A stretch of 64,000 nucleotides of DNA from Lama glama (Eukaryota), in contig CM052816.1 of NCBI GenBank assembly GCA_028534125.1, forward strand, positions 16,742,001 through 16,806,000, in the 5' to 3' direction. Within the stretch, counting starts at the first letter, position 1, and each line of letters begins with the position of its first letter. The notes under the pieces were generated by a model. It worked only from the letters and a program-made list of their open reading frames with translations, was not told where the DNA came from and searched no databases. Below, one piece after another: positions 16,310 to 59,780 of the stretch. The position numbers and the translations under genes are program-made.

Positions 16310-16747
<438 letters not shown>

Positions 16748-19579: not shown

Positions 19580-19900
19580 GAGTGTTTCTTCAAGTGGGTC
19601 TCCAGAATACTTGTATTGGAATCACCTGGAGTGCTTGTTAAAAATGGAGATTCTTGGTCTTACTCTGAGAGATTCTCTCATTTAATATTTCTGGGGTGGG
19701 GGGGAGGGCACAGGAATCTGCATTTTTAACAATCCCCCAGGTGATTCTTGTGCCCATTGAAAAACAAATCTAGCCCTTAATCCTGGCTGAGTAACAGAAC
19801 CATCTGGGAGGCTTGTTAAAAATCTTAATATCAATTCTGACTAAAGAGGTCTGGGGTAGAGCCCAGGCACCTATGTGCCTTTTTTAAAAAAGCTCCACTT
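19580..19900. mobile_element. Two adjacent MER5-type hAT-Charlie fossils
   Basis: gaatcacctggagtgcttgttaaaaatggagattc and caggaatctgcatttttaacaa...ccaggtgattct are MER5A/B hallmarks. Confidence 0.7.
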
Positions 19901-22676: not shown

Positions 22677-22847
<171 letters not shown>

Positions 22848-23396
22848 TCACTTATTTTATAAGGGTCACAAGAGATGTATCCTCACTGAGTCATAGTTTC
22901 AGACTCTAAAGGCCAATTTTCTCATGGGTCAAAGAAGATAACAGCTAACACTTAAAAATGCTGCTTCACTGAGGTATAATTCACATAAAATTAATACAAC
23001 AATTTAAAAGTGTACACTTCAGTGAATTTCGACAAATGGAGTTGTAGAACATTATCACAATCATGACACTGAACATTTCCACCCCCCACCTGAAGTTCCC
23101 TTCAGCCCTTTGCAGTCAATATCCTTTCTTCAAACCCTGGCCACCAATGATAAACTTTCTAATACTTAGAAAACTGCGTTTTCTAGAATTTCATATAATT
23201 GGAAGCATATAGTATGTCACTTGTGTGGGCTTTTCTGATTTAGCATAATGATTTTGAGATTTATCCATATGATTGCATTATCAGTAATTCATTCCTTTTT
23301 ATGGCTGAGAGCTATTCCATATTATAGATGTACCACATTTTGTTCACCCATTCATCAGGTAGTGAATGGTTGGACTATTTCCAATTATTGGCTATT

Positions 23397-23694
23397 TTTT
23401 AAAACTTTTTTTTTTTTATGGAGTTATAGTCAGTTTACAACATTGTGTCAATTTCCAGTGTAGAGCACAATTTTTCAGTTATATATGAACATATATATAT
23501 TCATTGTCACATTCTTTTTTGCTGTGAGCTACCACAAGATCTTGCATATATTTCCCTGTGCTATACAGTATAATCTTGTTTATCTATTCTACATATGCCT
23601 GTCAGTATCTACAAATTTTGAACTCCCAGTCTGTCCCTTCCCACCCACCTCCCCTCTGGCAACCACAAGTTTGTATTCTGTATCTATAAGTCTG
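23397..23694 (-). mobile_element. Younger L1 3' end nested in the old L1
   Basis: TSD tccaattattg(g/c)ctatt at 23380 and 23695. Confidence 0.85.
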
Positions 23695-26183
23695 TCCAAT
23701 TATTGCCTATTATGATAAAGCTGCTACAAACGTTCAAGTACAAGCCTTTGTGTGGACATGTTTTCATTTCTTTTGTAAATACCTAGAAATGGGATGCTGG
23801 GTCATATGTTAAGTTTATGTTTACATTTATAAGAAATGGCCATACTGTTTTCCAAAGTGATGGTACCAATCTGCATTCCTACCACCAATGATTAATAAGT
23901 TTTAGTTGCTCCATGCCCTTGACAACACTTGGTACTGTCAGTTTTAAAACTTTTAGCTATCCTAGTGAGGACAGTGGTTGTGAGGATAGTTGTGAGTAAT
24001 GACAGTTTTTTCCCATCTGTTTATTTTCCATTGACCTACCTTCTTTAATGAAGTACCTGTTCAAATGTTTTGCCCATTTAAAAACTTGACCATTTGTCTT
24101 GTTATTGAGTTTAAGAGGTGTTTATTATGGATATAAGTCCTTCAGCAAATATGTGATCAGCAAATCTTTCTCCCAGTCTGTGGCTTGTCTTTTTATTTAC
24201 CTAATATATTTTGAAAAGCAGTTTTTAAATCTGATTTCTTTTGCTTTTTGTGTCTTATCTAAGAAATATTTATCTAACCCAAGGACACAAAGATCTCCTA
24301 ATTTTTTTCTAGAGGGTTAGAGTTTTAATTTTTATGTTTAGGTCTATGATTTACTAGAGTTATTTGTTTATAATATGAATAAAAACAGAAGTTCATTTGA
24401 TTTATTTGAATACGGATATACAGTAATTCCAGTACCCTTCGCTGAAAGGACTATATTTCCCCATTCAATTATCTTATCTTGGCACTTTTGTCAACTAATC
24501 AGTTAACTGTTTATGAGTGGGTTTACTTCTAGGATCCGTTCTGTCCATAGTGTCTTGATTACTATAGCTTTATAGAAAGTCTTAAAATGAATTAGTATAA
24601 ATCCTCCAGCTTCATTCTTTTTCAAAATTGTTTTGGTTAAGCTAGGTCTTTTGTATTTCATATAAATTTTAGAAACAGCTTGTCAATTTCTACAAAAAAG
24701 CCTTTTGGGATTTGGATTGTAATTGCATTTAACTGCAGATCAATTTGGAAGAACTGACATCTTAATATTCAGTCTTCTATCCATGAATATGGTACATATC
24801 TCCATTTATTTATTTGGTCTTTAATTTCTCTTAGCAATATGCTATAGTCTTCAGAATATATGTCTTCTACATATTTGCTAAATTTTCCCCTAATTGTTCA
24901 CTGACAGCAAAATAGAACTGAATTCTGTTATGTTGACTTCGTGTCCTGCAATCTTGCTAAACTTATTTACTAGTTTTGGTAGCTTTACTGTCAATTTCTT
25001 GGGATTTTCTACATAGATGATTAAGTCATCTGAGAATAAAACTACTCTTTCCAATCTAAATGCCTTTTAAAAAAATAAATGCTCTTCCTTGTCTTTTATT
25101 TCTTCATGCTGACTAATAACTTCAGTTCAATGTTTAAAAGAAGTTGTGAAGAGTCGACCTTCTTCCTTTGCTCCTTATTTTAAGTGGAAAAGTTCAATCT
25201 TTCACATTATGTAAGATGTTTCTATCTATATACCTAGTTTAGTGTTTTTTAACTTTTCTTTATCACCCCCCAAAAGAATCTTTTTAGACTTCTTTTTTGG
25301 TACTTGTGCTACCCACCACAAGAAATTTGAATACAAGATATACTGTGTATCTGTTTATTTGTACCATTTTATTTTTTTGGTTTCATTTTTCCTCATTCTT
25401 TTGAATTAGCTGAAAATTTTTAATAATATGATTTCATTTCCACTTTTGGCTTATTAGCTATTTCTCTTAGTTTTTCAGTGCTTGCTCTAGGGTTAGTAGT
25501 ATCTTAAACTTATCACAGTCTATCTTCAAATACTATACCACTTCACAAATAGTCTAAGATCCTTAACAAAATATTTTCATTTCCCCCTCCTTTCCTTTGT
25601 GCCATTAGTACAAATTTTAGTTTTACATACATTATAAACCCCATAATACATCATCACTACTTTTGCTTTAAACAATTACCTTTTCAAAAGATTAAAAATA
25701 AGAGAAGAATGAATTAACAAATGTTGGCAAGGATGTGGAGAAAAGGGAACTCTCACACACTGTTTGTGGAAATGTAAATTGGTGCGGCCACTGAAGAAAA
25801 TAGCATGTAGGGTTCTCAAAACACTAAAAATAGAACTGTATGATCTAGCAATTCCACTCTTGAGTATACATCCGAAAAAACCAAAAACACTAACTTGAAA
25901 AGATAGATGCACCCCAGTGTTCATAGCAGCATATTCACAACTGCCAAGATATGGAAGCAACCTAAGTGTCCATCAATTGATGAATGACTAAAGAAGATGT
26001 GGTATATATATATACAATGGAATTCTACTCAGCCATAAAAAAAGAACAAAATTTTGCCATGTGCAGCAACATGAATGGAGTTGGAGGGCATTATGCTAAG
26101 TGAAATTAGTCAGACAGAGAAAGACAAACACTGTATGATATCACCACGTGGAATCTAAAAAATAAAACAAATTAGTGAATATA

Positions 26184-26339
26184 GGGGGAAAGGTATAGCT
26201 CAACAGGTAGAGCACAAGCTCAATACCCCAGAGGTCCCGGGTTCATTGGTACCCGGGTACCAATCCCCGGTACCTCCTCCAAGCTGAAATCAATGAAGAA
26301 ATCTAGTTACGCCCCACTCAAGAAACAAACAATATCAGC
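26184..26339 (+). mobile_element. Vic-1-type tRNA-derived SINE (atypical copy)
   Basis: gggggaaaggtatagctcaacaggtagagc head; TSD acaaat(t/g)agtgaatata at 26167 and 26340. Confidence 0.8.
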
Positions 26340-26398
26340 ACAAATGAGTGAATATAACAGAAAAGAAGCAGACTCACAAATACAGAGAACAGTGAGTG

Positions 26399-26504
26399 GG
26401 GGGGTGAAATATAGTGGTTGGGGAGTCAGAGGTACAAACTATTGGGTATAAGGGGGGTGAAATATAGTGGTTGGGGAGTCAGAGGTACTAACTATTGGGT
26501 ATAA
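26399..26504. repeat. 53-bp tandem duplication (2 copies)
   Basis: ggggggtgaaatatagtggttggggagtcagaggtac(a/t)aactattgggtataa x2, 1 mismatch. Confidence 0.95.
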
Positions 26505-27645
26505 GATAGGCTCAAGGATGTACTGTACAACATGGAAAAGACAGCCAAATTTTGTAATAACTGTAAATGGAAAGTAACCTTAAAAATTGTATAAAAAATT
26601 TTAAAAATTTAAAAAATAACAAAAAATTGTCCTTTATATGTATCCACATATTTACCATGTAGAATGTTCTTCACTTCTTTGTGTAAATCCAAATTTCCGT
26701 AGCATATTTTCTTCTGCCTGAATAACTACCTTTAACTTTATAGCGTGTATCTGCTGGTGATGAATTCTATCAGCTTTTCTTGGTCTGAAAAACTAGTTCA
26801 CTCTTGAGAGATATTTTCACTAGGTATGATTTCTAGGTTAATGGGTTTATTTTCAGCACTTCAAGATGCTGTTCCACTGTCTCTGGTATATAGGTTTTCT
26901 GATCACTCTTCTCTCTGTTATTTTGTACATGATGTACCTTTTTTCCTTTAGTGCTTTTCAGATTTTCTTTTTATCATTGTTTTTCAGTAAGTTGATTATG
27001 ATGCATTTTGGTGTGGTTTTCTTAATGTTTCTTCTGTTTGCAGATTATTGTTGGGTTTGTGGTTTAATTTTTTTTTCATCAAATTTGGAAGTTTTTTGGA
27101 TTTATTTGTTCAAATATTTTTTCTGTGTCTGCCCTCCTGCCCTTTCTCTTTCTGGAATTCCAATTATATGTTTGTTAGACTGCCCAATACATCCTATAGC
27201 TCAACAAGGCACTCTTCAACTTTCTTTCTTCTCTCTGGGCTTAGTTCTGGATAGTTTCTATTGATATGTCTTCAAGTTCACTGTTTCTTCTGCAGTGTCT
27301 AATCCACTACTAATCCCACCTAGTATAATTTTGGGGGGAGATATTTTTCATCTTTAGAAGCTTCATTTGGGTCTTTTAGAATAAAAATATCTTCTATTTT
27401 TCTCCTCATCATTTCCTTTGTGTCCTCAAGCATATTTAAAAGATTTATAATAGCTGTTTTAAGGTCCTTTTATAATAGTTCCATCACCACTGTCATTTCT
27501 GGATTTTTCTATCATTTGGGTTGGTTTTTTCCCCCAGGTTACTGGTCATATTATTCTGCTTTTGTATACCTTATCATTCTTCATTGAATGCAGAGCTTTG
27601 TAATTTTGATGTTTCAGAGCACTGGATTTTCTTGTAGTCTTTTAA

Positions 27646-27727
27646 CACATTGATTGCTGATTGTGGATCAGGTGCCCCTGAGGAAGCACAATCATCCCCC
27701 ATATTTGTGGATGTGGTGATCAACATG
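27646..27727. mobile_element. Putative piggyBac-type MITE (82 bp, TTAA TSD)
   Basis: TTAA-CACATTGATTGC...GTGATCAACATG-TTAA; all four TIR mismatches are CpG-decay pairs. Confidence 0.7.
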
Positions 27728-28689
27728 TTAAAGAGTGTTTGGTTTTAGTCTGGTGTGTAACTAAGCAACTTGTAGATCAGTCTGAGCCTTCTGAGCTTGC
27801 TTTGCACTCTTTATGGTGGCTCCAGAGCAGCCTTTATTCTGGGACTACATTAGTCCCACTACTAAAGGTGTGACTTTTGGATTCTACCCAGTGTTTCTCC
27901 ACTGTGGCTGATGGGAATAGAAGCTGTGAGTTCAGTATATCATTCAGTTGATTGCCTTGAGGACAACTTCGTCTCATGCATGTGCAGATCTGTACATAAT
28001 CAAAAAACAGGTGATTTCTCTGCAGATCTCTGGTGTTCTCTCTGTGCAGCTCTGACTTCTTCAGTACATTGCCTCACTCTTCTTAGATTCTGATCTCTGC
28101 CTAAACTCAGTGAAACAGCCAAACTCTATGTTAGTTGTCTTTCCTTGTGCTAAAAACTAGAAACTGCCTCCAGGGAGTTAACTGGGACAATGATATGATT
28201 CACCTTGTTTCTTTCCATTTCTTAGGGTTCACAGACTCATGCTACCTGTTATCCAATATCTGAAACTGTGGTTTCACATATTTTGTCTGGTTTTCTAGTT
28301 GTTTATGGCAGGAGGGCAATTTGCATAAAAGCTCATCTTTCACAGGCAAAAATGAAAGATCTAATAACTACATAACATGTAGTACCTAGTGGATGTCAGG
28401 CCCTGTGCTAACCATTTTACATATATCTCATTTAATCCCACAACAATGTCGTGACAGAAGTACTCACATTATCTTTGCTTTATAGACAATGAAACTGAGG
28501 GTCTGAGGGCTTAAGAAACTAGCCCAAGTTACCATAGATAGTATAATAAGATATAGAAGTAGGATTCAGATCCCAGTAGCCTAAGCTCTAAATCACTATA
28601 TTACAATGGTTACACTGTATCTCAGAAGAGGGAAGAATGAGGAAGTCAAGGCGCAAGGAGGAGTCTTGGCATGTAATATAATACAGTAA

Positions 28690-29540
28690 GAACAAAGTGA
28701 AACAAAGGATTTGAATAGACATTTCTCCAAAGAAGGTAAACATAGGGCCAATAAGCACATGAAAAGATGCTCAACATCATTAGTCATCTTGGAAATGCAA
28801 ATCAAAACCACACAACGCCATACTACTTCAATAGCCAGTTTGATGACTATAATCAAAAAGACAGCTAATAACAAGTGCTGGCAAGGATGCAGAAAAAGTG
28901 GAATCCTCATACATCACTGGTGGGATTATAAAATGGTGCAGCTACTTTGGAGTACAGTTTGATGGTGCCTGAAAGGGTTAAACACAGAACTGCCACGTGC
29001 CCCATCAATTCTACTACTAGGTATAACCTCAAAAAACTGAAAACATATGTTCACACAAAAACTTGTACACAAATGTTCCTAGTGGTACTATTCATAATGG
29101 CCCAAAGTAGAAACAACCCAAATGTCCATCAACTGATGAATGGATAAAAAAAAAATGTAGTATATCCATAGAATGGAATATTATTTGGCAATACAAAGGA
29201 ATGAATTATGTGTTATAACACGGAAGAAACTTTAAAATAGTATGCTAAGTGAAAAAGGCCAGTCACAGAAGGCCAAATATCATATGATTCCATTTATACA
29301 ACACATACAAAATAGGCAAATCTATAGAGACAGTAAGTAGATTAGTGGTTACCGAAGCCTAAGGAAAGGCAGGGATGGGGAGTGAGGTTTGTTTTTGTAG
29401 TAATGAAAATGAAATTACATAGTGATGATGACTATGTAACCTTGAGAATATACTAAAAACCTTTAAACTGTACACTTTAAAGGGGTGAGTTTCACGGCAT
29501 ATGAATTACATCTCACTAAATATGTTAGCAAAAAAACAAA
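28690..29540 (+). mobile_element. L1M-type 3' fragment
   Basis: ORF2 C-terminus NRHFSKE...HMKRCSTSLVILEMQIKTT, then 3' UTR and A-tail. Confidence 0.88.
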
Positions 29541-29739
29541 GCAAGACAAGATGAAGAATAATCCTTCATGGCTTGTTTTAGTCTTCCTAGTTAGGCTGGA
29601 GTATTGGAACATGTGACAAAATATAAATGAAGCTCAATAGCTAAAGAAGGGGCACAAACCCATTTCTGCTTCAATTTCCAAGTCCCACACCTCCACTGAG
29701 AGTTTACCTTCAGAAATACACAGGACAATATTTGCTCAC

Positions 29740-29892
29740 CACTGCGTGGTCGGCTTTTCCTGAGCCTGTAACAGTCAAGGCAGACCCCAAATCCACATTT
29801 GCGACAAACCCAATGGATGTTGAACAGAGTTGTTTCACATACATCACACATCTCCCGTACACCACGCACTGCTCGCTTCCATGCCACTTTCT
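29740..29892 (-). CDS. KDM3B: KDM3B exon 11 (zinc finger)
   Basis: 153 nt; [50 protein letters not shown]. Confidence 0.97.
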
Positions 29893-30550
29893 CTGGTGGA
29901 AAAAGGAAGAGGAATATGTTGGCACTGGCCACCCTGAATAATAGCAAAAGATCCCAGATCCACTGATTCTTACTTAAGCATTTTGTCCAGCAATAAAACT
30001 CAAAGATTCATGAGGTTTGTTTTTCTGTAATTTTAAGAGATACAAAATACAGGGAATTTCTAATATTTCTGAACAAGTGACTATGAGCATGAATGCCACA
30101 TGCTGTCACTGAAGATACCATAAAATTTTCAATTTCGGGGAGTTTGGAATAAGAGGATTCTTAAAATACAGGGCATAATTTCATAGTATAATATTCCTTG
30201 GTCTAGAAATAGGGTACAGTATCTCACAAAAATGAAAATATCAAAAATGTCTGAATATCGTGGGTGCTAGGTGTGAAACACGGCAATCAGTAGCACTTCA
30301 TCTATTCACAAATCATAAAGTATAGCTTACTAATAAAAATTAGTTCAAAGCAAACTGAAAATATTCTGTAAATCAAACCCAAATAGGGATCAAAATATAA
30401 ATTATGACAACTATGCTACAAAAATGAGAGGCAATCAAGGAAGGAATTTTTAGTCTGTCAACTGCCAAAGACTAAAAGAATGAGGACGGCTGGATATAGG
30501 TATGGCTTCAGCCACTTAGTTTGCTACAAAAAGAAGTCTTATCAGTCTTA

Positions 30551-49874: not shown

Positions 49875-49960
49875 TTCTTAGAGGAGGTACTGGGATTGAA
49901 CCCAGAACCTCATGCATGCTACAGATGTGCTCTACCACTTGAGCTATATCCTCCGTGCAA
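49875..49960 (-). mobile_element. Tail-less inverted copy of the neighbouring SINE head
   Basis: Reverse complement aligns to 49331-49417 with 6 substitutions and 1 indel. Confidence 0.85.
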
Positions 49961-59664: not shown

Positions 59665-59780
59665 GGGGGGAAATACAGCTTCGTGGTAGAGGATGTGCTT
59701 AGCATGCACAAGGTCCTGAGTTCAATCCCCAGTACTTCCATTAAAAAACAAAACAAAAACAAAAACACACACACACACAT
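59665..59780 (+). mobile_element. Vic-1-type SINE with A/CA tail
   Basis: ggggggaaatacagcttcgtggtagagg...gagttcaatccccagtacttcc. Confidence 0.8.

What the first reader, a model, noticed from the sequence alone, without database searches (positions are those of the whole stretch)
27642..27731. 82-bp piggyBac-like MITE with TTAA target duplication inside an old L1
Seen: TTAA (27642-45), CACATTGATTGC...GTGATCAACATG, TTAA (27728-31). The left end and the reverse complement of the right end (CATGTTGATCAC) differ only at two CA/TG pairs, the signature of CpG deamination on opposite strands. This reconstructs a perfect 12-bp TIR, CACGTTGATCGC. A subterminal ttgtggat occurs twice (27661, 27705). Removing the element and one TTAA leaves cttgtagtcttttaaagagtgtttgg, which reads as continuous L1M sequence. 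Knowledge: TTAA TSDs with CCC/CAC-initiated TIRs are diagnostic of piggyBac; from memory, the Myotis piggyBat TIR begins CACTTGGATTGC. Inference: a non-autonomous piggyBac that moved after this L1 inserted, possibly evidence for a little-described piggyBac wave in the camelid/cetartiodactyl lineage.
Basis: partly seen in the sequence, partly recalled or inferred. Interest (0 to 1): 0.72.

Follow-up and report, generated by a model that had tools for sequence, protein, structure and literature searches.

The report
Tiny dead piggyBac transposon, camelid-like genome
This 82-base insert in a gene intron is one decayed copy of a real, dispersed family of miniature piggyBac-type jumping elements in a camel-family-like genome; the kind of element is well known, but I found no description of such a family in camels or their relatives.

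Summary
The element is real. TTAA, 82 bases, TTAA lie where stated. The tips match at only 8 of 12 bases, which is chance level. All four differences fit CpG decay, which 1 of 1000 shuffled windows reproduced.

The decisive test was laying genome contigs of four coded organisms on the site. In each run 23-27 other contigs matched the element only. They began at the TTAA with unrelated flanks and showed both tip CpGs intact. Sister copies carry a 20-base palindrome 16-35 bases from one tip, where the T. ni piggyBac transposase binds its palindrome.

Best reading: a dead, gene-less piggyBac MITE, fixed here in a KDM3B intron, probably tens of millions of years old. It is not piggyBat-derived.

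Untested: the empty site, the autonomous partner, presence outside these four organisms, and Dfam/Repbase. The camelid host and the L1 host are recalled identifications. The scan's notes held no earlier record of it. Verdict: new member of a known kind.

The parts
27642..27645 (.). TTAA target-site copy, left
   Evidence: Sequence. Sister contigs begin to align at 27639-27642 (table 8).
27646..27727 (-). 82-base non-coding piggyBac-type MITE, decayed, no CpG left. Strand is given by analogy: the palindrome-bearing end, equal to the piggyBac left end, is at 27727.
   Evidence: 0 CG in 82 bases. 23-27 other contigs per run align to this stretch only. Orientation is inferred from PMC7351741.
27646..27658 (+). 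Terminal inverted repeat, 12-14 bases; family reading CACGTTGAYCGCC
   Evidence: (I2). The family reading is my reading of the loose ends, table 7.
27694..27712 (.). Decayed remains of a 20-base palindrome (8-base arms GTCACCCA and its reverse complement around a 4-base centre) that lies 16-35 bases from this tip in sister copies; likely binding site of the transposase's cysteine-rich domains
   Evidence: Whole palindrome in the loose-end consensus of 4 contigs of run X13 at 27691 (agreement 0.86); its second arm in the consensus of 6 contigs at 27707 in all four runs; T>G at 27702 in 6 contigs. It is not detectable in the window copy alone. The role is inferred.
27715..27727 (-). Terminal inverted repeat at the palindrome-bearing end
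   Evidence: Sister copies end in an intact CG-bearing tip followed by TTAA (table 7).
27728..27731 (.). TTAA target-site copy, right
   Evidence: Sequence. The furthest sister piece ends at 27733.
26620..28350 (-). Host sequence: an old, decayed L1 5' region with ORF1 remnants (identification recalled; limits approximate)
   Evidence: Sequence and recall. Pfam scan of 14 frame fragments and PDB searches of 2 gave no L1 hit.
22830..29739 (-). Intron of KDM3B that holds the L1 and the element (limits approximate)
   Evidence: An open frame at 16310-16744 matches human KDM3B structures at E 2e-20. Open exon frames at 22719-22829 and about 29740-29896 are assigned to the same gene by recall.

Best explanation
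It is one copy of a dispersed, now dead family of about 82-base non-autonomous piggyBac elements (MITEs). Shown: the family has TTAA on both sides, 12-14-base TIRs starting CAC, a palindrome 16-35 bases from one tip only, no coding capacity, and many unrelated insertion sites. Inferred from piggyBac biochemistry: a transposase made by a longer autonomous element bound both TIRs with its core and the palindrome with its two cysteine-rich domains. It cut the element out through TTAA hairpins and inserted it into a TTAA inside an already old L1, duplicating the TTAA. The family is little more than the two transposase-binding ends, probably left by an internal deletion of the autonomous element. 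After the transposase died out, methylated CpGs decayed to TG or CA independently at the two ends. The copy is now a fixed, probably neutral passenger in a KDM3B intron.
For:: 28, 24, 26 and 28 contigs laid in four runs. All cover lies at 27639-27733 except one contig per run at 27811-27865. Left flanks of copies starting at 27640-27642 agree at 0.52-0.59, the level simulated for unrelated sequences (0.51-0.57). Displayed rows give 9-11 left-flank contigs per run. Tips with intact CG and terminal TTAA are seen in sister copies. CpG-type match in 1 of 1000 shuffled windows. PMC5381638 (passages): TTAA duplication, TIRs of 14 +/- 2 bases, and a first-six-base motif that CACGTT fits. PMC7351741 (passages): the domain dimer binds a palindrome at bp 17-33 of one end. 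PMC11707139 (passages): piggyBat also has palindromes on one end only; unrelated metagenome MITEs with the same tip class carry palindromes at bp 14-35 of one end (L006, L007, L012, L018); 19 of 20 holders have at least 0.95 of the sampled words, above the roughly 0.93 expected without the insertion.
Against: No transposase or autonomous partner was found, so the superfamily rests on ends alone. No empty site was seen: no contig or window paralogue spans the junction. The contig of this very locus was not among the laid pieces, and the tool says a filter drops some records. Only 32 of 110 piece rows and 24 of 70 loose-end rows were shown. Contigs are not loci, so counts are neither exact nor a copy number. 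The palindrome was read by eye from consensus strings, without its own null, and is not significant in the window copy. Only 5 of 19 distinct metagenome elements have a palindrome that 8 or fewer of 300 shuffles reach. Three of the four laid runs are marked as possible sources of the window.
Confidence: 0.9

Rival explanations
1. Same mechanism, but not lineage-specific or not new: an older family shared across cetartiodactyls or Laurasiatheria, or one already in Dfam/Repbase under some name. This rival concerns novelty, not mechanism.
For: The copy has lost every CpG. It differs from its closest listed sisters by 15% (58 of 385 letters, run X1), a figure biased low by the 80% floor. PMC8605555 Table 8 lists 4 unnamed piggyBac-class MITE families in each of four camelid genomes, assigned by Repbase similarity; its supplements were unreadable. 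The bat family npiggyBac-1_EF has a 90-base consensus, the length of this element plus both TTAA; I did not see its sequence.
Against: The human Repbase list has only Looper, MER75/A/B and MER85 as piggyBac (PMC5753468), which from recall start with CCC. Searches listed no paper describing such a family. npiggyBac-1_EF copies are only 4-5% diverged in bats.
Confidence: 0.5
2. A MITE of another cut-and-paste superfamily with CAC...GTG ends (Chapaev/CMC) or TTAA targets (Kolobok, Sola3).
For: Chapaev elements have invariant CAC and GTG termini and 3-4-base duplications (PMC4079192, passages). No transposase links this family to piggyBac.
Against: Chapaev3 makes a 3-base TWA duplication between A and T; here the three flanking bases differ (TAA against TTA) and the four-base TTAA is repeated. 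The single-copy ends and right-end consensuses displayed carry TTAA; one three-contig left-end consensus reads TAAA instead. From recall, Kolobok ends start with two purines and Sola3 with GAG. The one-sided palindrome sits at the piggyBac position.
Confidence: 0.06
3. A chance inverted repeat between two TTAA in AT-rich L1 sequence, or a normal part of the L1.
For: Plain 8/12 identity between TTAA pairs is common.
Against: 23-27 other contigs per genome match the element and stop at its TTAA, with zero cover on both adjoining flanks.
Confidence: 0.01
4. A retrocopy of a small structured RNA, or a functional hairpin RNA gene.
For: The 90 bases fold somewhat better than shuffles (z -2.15 and -2.64).
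Against: No Rfam match at gathering score; best E-value 1.7. No poly(A) tail or long duplication. The fold follows from the TIRs.
Confidence: 0.02

Closest known systems
Non-autonomous piggyBac elements of bats and lemurs (npiggy1-3_Mm, npiggy_156/239/165_ML, npiggyBac-1/2_EF, nPiggyBac_MNa; PMC2997546, PMC10162687, PMC4971623)
   Same: TTAA duplication, short TIRs, no ORF, dispersed copies in a mammal. Length is at the short end of the listed range; npiggyBac-1_EF is 90 bases.
   Different: Host order. Copies here appear more decayed than most of those families (1.4-9.1% for the non-autonomous ones). The npiggy1_Mm TIR starts CCCTTT. I could not see the other consensus sequences.
piggyBat (Myotis lucifugus)
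   Same: CAC-initiated tip, TTAA, palindrome on one end only.
   Different: Two mismatches in the first 11 bases against the closer window tip. No GCGGGA motif at bp 11-16. Palindrome sequence unrelated. piggyBat is autonomous and active.
Trichoplusia ni piggyBac
   Same: 13-base TIR followed by a palindromic repeat bound at bp 17-33 of one end; here bp 16-35.
   Different: Different tip and palindrome sequence. T. ni has the palindrome on both ends at different distances; here only one was seen.
Human piggyBac fossils Looper, MER75, MER85
   Same: Old TTAA-flanked non-autonomous copies in a placental genome.
   Different: From recall they start with CCC and are longer; not compared by a tool.
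Unnamed metagenome MITEs L006 and L005/L007/L012/L018
   Same: TTAA, CAYRTTGA tips, 74-88 bases, one-sided palindrome at bp 14-35. L012 and L018 have 13-base or longer TIRs of the same reading as the sister copies' left end.
   Different: No internal similarity. Their transposase is unknown too.

Membership tests
piggyBac superfamily, non-autonomous (MITE) | TTAA target-site duplication | tested here: met
   Window copy. Sister ends displayed carry TTAA; one left-end consensus reads TAAA.
piggyBac superfamily, non-autonomous (MITE) | TIRs of about 12-19 bases starting C[C/A/T][C/A/T][T/G/A][T/A/G][T/G/A] | tested here: met
   12-14 bases, family tip CACGTT, against PMC5381638.
piggyBac superfamily, non-autonomous (MITE) | Dispersed copies with shared boundaries and unrelated flanks | tested here: met
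piggyBac superfamily, non-autonomous (MITE) | Subterminal palindrome near bp 17-33 of one end (seen in the two solved systems, not universal) | tested here: met
   Sister copies, bp 16-35 (read by eye); decayed in the window copy.
piggyBac superfamily, non-autonomous (MITE) | Empty orthologous or paralogous site with a single TTAA | tested here: inconclusive
   No contig or window paralogue spans the site; no outgroup run was returned.
piggyBac superfamily, non-autonomous (MITE) | Autonomous partner with the same ends and a DDD transposase | not testable with these tools
   No genome held. 16 single-end hits in viral contigs had no partner end.
piggyBat family | Tip match over bases 1-11 with at most one mismatch (Repbase's superfamily rule, used as a yardstick) and GCGGGA motif at bp 11-16 | tested here: not met
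   Two mismatches against the left end printed in PMC13405395 Table 1; motif absent (for the motif).
Chapaev3 (CMC) | 3-base TWA duplication between A and T | tested here: not met
   Flanking triplets differ and TTAA is repeated against PMC4079192.
Any catalogued Dfam/Repbase family | Consensus match over most of the length | not testable with these tools
   No repeat library on hand; supplements with consensus sequences or TIR tables were unreadable.

The most novel reading that the evidence does not exclude
The family marks an undescribed horizontal invasion of the camelid germ line, after camelids split from other cetartiodactyls, by a piggyBac clade with CACGTTGA tips that is also found in unrelated eukaryote-like metagenome contigs. 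It may be the same clade or family that invaded vesper bats (90-base npiggyBac-1_EF). It would add a herbivore lineage to the short list of mammals with piggyBac activity, and its 82 bases would define a natural minimal pair of piggyBac ends.
Probability: 0.35. Interest if true: 0.58.

Novelty: new member of a known kind. Interest (0 to 1): 0.4.

Why it matters
In the papers I read, mammalian piggyBac activity is documented in the human lineage, lemurs and bats, and recent DNA transposons are reported as about 20 times scarcer in other artiodactyls than in cetaceans (10.1101/2022.12.28.522108, passages). A camelid-restricted family would be a further independent horizontal transfer and a datable marker for camelid history. 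Its ends would also guide the search for the fossil transposase. The single intronic copy itself shows no sign of function.

Tried and rejected
No whole genome was held. A metagenome scan for both ends gave 28 loci, 19 distinct elements, none similar inside. A viral-contig scan for one end gave 16 hits, none with a partner end in the fetched locus, so I treat them as chance. Rfam gave nothing at the element. Pfam (14 fragments) and PDB (2 fragments) did not confirm L1 ORF1. No L1 paralogue spans the site in the window or among contigs at 80%; the missing flank cover reflects a filter and proves nothing about the locus. Runs X21-X24 held next to none of the words and were not used. Paper searches for a camelid or cetartiodactyl piggyBac family or for the tip motif found no description. 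The supplement of PMC4971623 held no sequences, and that of PMC6598621 had no piggyBac repeat row. Supplements of PMC2997546, PMC8605555 and PMC5381638 were unreadable and may hold matching consensus sequences or TIRs. Earlier notes of this scan gave no look-alike. Rejected: the subterminal direct repeat as a family feature, descent from piggyBat, Chapaev3, and a small-RNA retrocopy.

Full report
1. Observation. The window has TTAA at 27642-27645, 82 bases, and TTAA at 27728-27731. The two tips agree at 8 of 12 positions. The four differences lie at tip positions 3-4 and 10-11, each a CA/TG pair, and positions 13-14 form a third such pair (extends the match to 14 with transitions allowed). Plain identity at this level is chance: 17 of 1989 TTAA pairs in the window reach it, against 13.0 in shuffles. 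A match whose differences are all of CpG-decay type is unique in the window and appeared in 1 of 1000 shuffled windows. That criterion was chosen after the fact, so on the window alone the case was suggestive only. No second copy lies in the window. Rfam has no match.

2. Setting. An open frame at 16310-16744 on the minus strand matches human KDM3B structures (E 2e-20). Further open exon frames flank the element at 22719-22829 and about 29740-29896, so it lies in a KDM3B intron; assigning those two exons to the gene is recalled. The flanks look like the 5' region and ORF1 remnants of an old L1 on the minus strand. That is recall: Pfam (14 fragments) and PDB (2 fragments) did not confirm it. 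The host looks camelid. The window has short tRNA-like SINEs that resemble the camelid vic-1 type from recall; SINEBase names vic-1 as a simple camel SINE (PMC3531059, passage). The holders' contig sets are about 2.0-2.1 Gb. No tool named the species.

3. The family exists. A search with the 1631 bases around the element listed 24 runs; 20 hold it, under 4 organism labels and 7 studies. Without the insertion a run would lose about 12 of 164 sampled words, a share of about 0.93. 19 of 20 holders have 0.95 or more. Leaving out the 10 rows marked as possible sources, labels A, C and D still reach 0.95-1.00; label B has only such rows. I laid 4 of the 24 runs, one per label, on 27450-27929 at 80% likeness; three are marked as possible sources of the window. 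28, 24, 26 and 28 contigs were laid. Depth is zero outside the element except at 27811-27865, where it equals that of one contig per run, so 27, 23, 25 and 27 contigs match the element only. Of 110 piece rows 32 were shown: 28 lie within 27639-27733 and 4 at 27811-27865. Loose ends before 27640-27642 agree at 0.52-0.59, within the range simulated for unrelated flanks (means 0.51-0.57 for 3-5 sequences). The displayed rows (24 of 70) give 9-11 left-flank contigs per run. Five of the 7 listed element contigs of run X1 stop 8-14 letters past 27691; I read this as an assembly-graph branch caused by further copies, so the family is probably larger. The contig of this locus itself was not listed, and the tool states that a filter drops records. 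Contigs are not loci, so these numbers are not a copy count.

4. Anatomy from sister copies (table 7, read by eye). At the right end the consensus of 6 contigs in each run ends CAACGTG then TTAA, with the CpG at tip positions 3-4 intact. At the left end a consensus of 3 contigs shows CG at positions 10-11 in runs X3 and X5 (CA in X1), preceded by TAAA; a single copy shows TTAA. The family TIR reads CACGTTGAYCGCC, 13 bases. Four contigs of run X13 show a 20-base palindrome with perfect 8-base arms, lying 16-35 bases from the right tip. A scan of metagenome contigs for both ends gave 28 loci, 19 distinct elements, none similar inside. Four from one assembly form a family (elements 62-87% alike, flanks 45-53%). 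Five of the 19 have a palindrome reached by at most 8 of 300 shuffles, and in four (L006, L007, L012, L018) it lies at bp 14-35 of one end. So this tip class with a one-sided palindrome is a real, recurring transposon end; no transposase was linked to any of them.

5. Mechanism. In T. ni piggyBac the transposase core holds the first 16 bases, a dimer of cysteine-rich domains binds a palindrome at bp 17-33 of one end, excision goes through TTAA hairpins and insertion duplicates TTAA (PMC7351741, passages). piggyBat also has palindromes on one end only (PMC11707139, passages). The family fits the general rules for the superfamily (PMC5381638, passages). I infer mobilisation in trans by an extinct autonomous piggyBac, insertion into the L1, then CpG decay. 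Shown: ends, target, dispersal, fixation, decay. Inferred: the enzyme, the role of the palindrome, origin by internal deletion, insertion after the L1, neutrality. Confidence 0.9. Chapaev shares CAC...GTG ends, but its Chapaev3 target rule is not met (PMC4079192, passages).

6. Age. The window copy has no CG left and differs from its 7 listed sisters in run X1 by 15% (58 of 385 letters). CpG sites inflate this and the 80% floor deflates it. For scale, the lemur family npiggy3_Mm at 9.1% non-CpG divergence was dated 35-38 My (PMC2997546, passages). Tens of millions of years is the most that can be said. This does not separate a camelid-specific wave from an older one.

7. Comparison and novelty. 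It works like, and passes the testable end criteria of, a non-autonomous piggyBac. It is not piggyBat: the tip printed in PMC13405395 Table 1 (passage) differs at 2 of the first 11 bases and its core motif is missing. Human Repbase lists only Looper, MER75/A/B and MER85 (PMC5753468, passages). The bat transfer study compared against cow and horse and does not mention camels in its main text (PMC10162687, passages and supplement rows); it lists a 90-base bat family whose sequence I did not see. The camelid TE survey lists 4 unnamed piggyBac-class MITE families per genome (PMC8605555, passages), which may or may not include this one; its supplements could not be read. The alpaca genome paper's repeat table has no piggyBac row (PMC6598621, passages and supplement search). 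From PMC4971623 I read passages, part of the Results and a supplement search; from PMC10813416, PMC4455052 and 10.1101/2022.12.28.522108 passages only. Searches listed no description of this family; most subscription papers and Repbase Reports are outside that library. The scan's own notes held no look-alike.

8. Verdict. A real family and an ordinary kind of element: new member of a known kind, interest 0.40. The bolder reading, an undescribed camelid-specific horizontal invasion, is not excluded (probability 0.35, interest 0.58 if true). It needs orthologous empty sites and a library check.

Noticed in passing
records 7, 15, 23, 31 (laid on window 27671-27733): One sister copy sits on a contig with about 7-10 times the depth of the others in all four runs, so it lies in an amplified or collapsed segment.
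   Followed up: no
window 19638-19729: A second TTAA-flanked 12-base inverted repeat (11 of 12 alike, 84 bases between the TTAA). From recall it looks like the internal hairpin of an old hAT MITE of the MER5/MER3 type, not a piggyBac.
   Followed up: partly
L005, L007, L012, L018 (matches at 601-684, 601-682, 601-682, 124-205): A 74-76-base multi-copy TTAA MITE family in one metagenome assembly, with TIRs of the same reading as this family and a strong one-sided palindrome in three of four.
   Followed up: partly
L006 601-696 and L003 601-681: Single TTAA-flanked elements with the same tip class and palindromes that 0 of 300 shuffles reach; L006 has a perfect 14-base TIR.
   Followed up: partly
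window 26184-26300: A tRNA-like SINE inside a younger L1 3' end, with an internal inverted duplication of about 46 bases.
   Followed up: no
window 26400-26500: An almost exact 54-base tandem duplication in the same L1 3' end.
   Followed up: no
window 49882-49953 (-), 59669-59740 (+), about 63179 (+): Further short tRNA-derived SINE copies; two score as tRNA in Rfam.
   Followed up: partly
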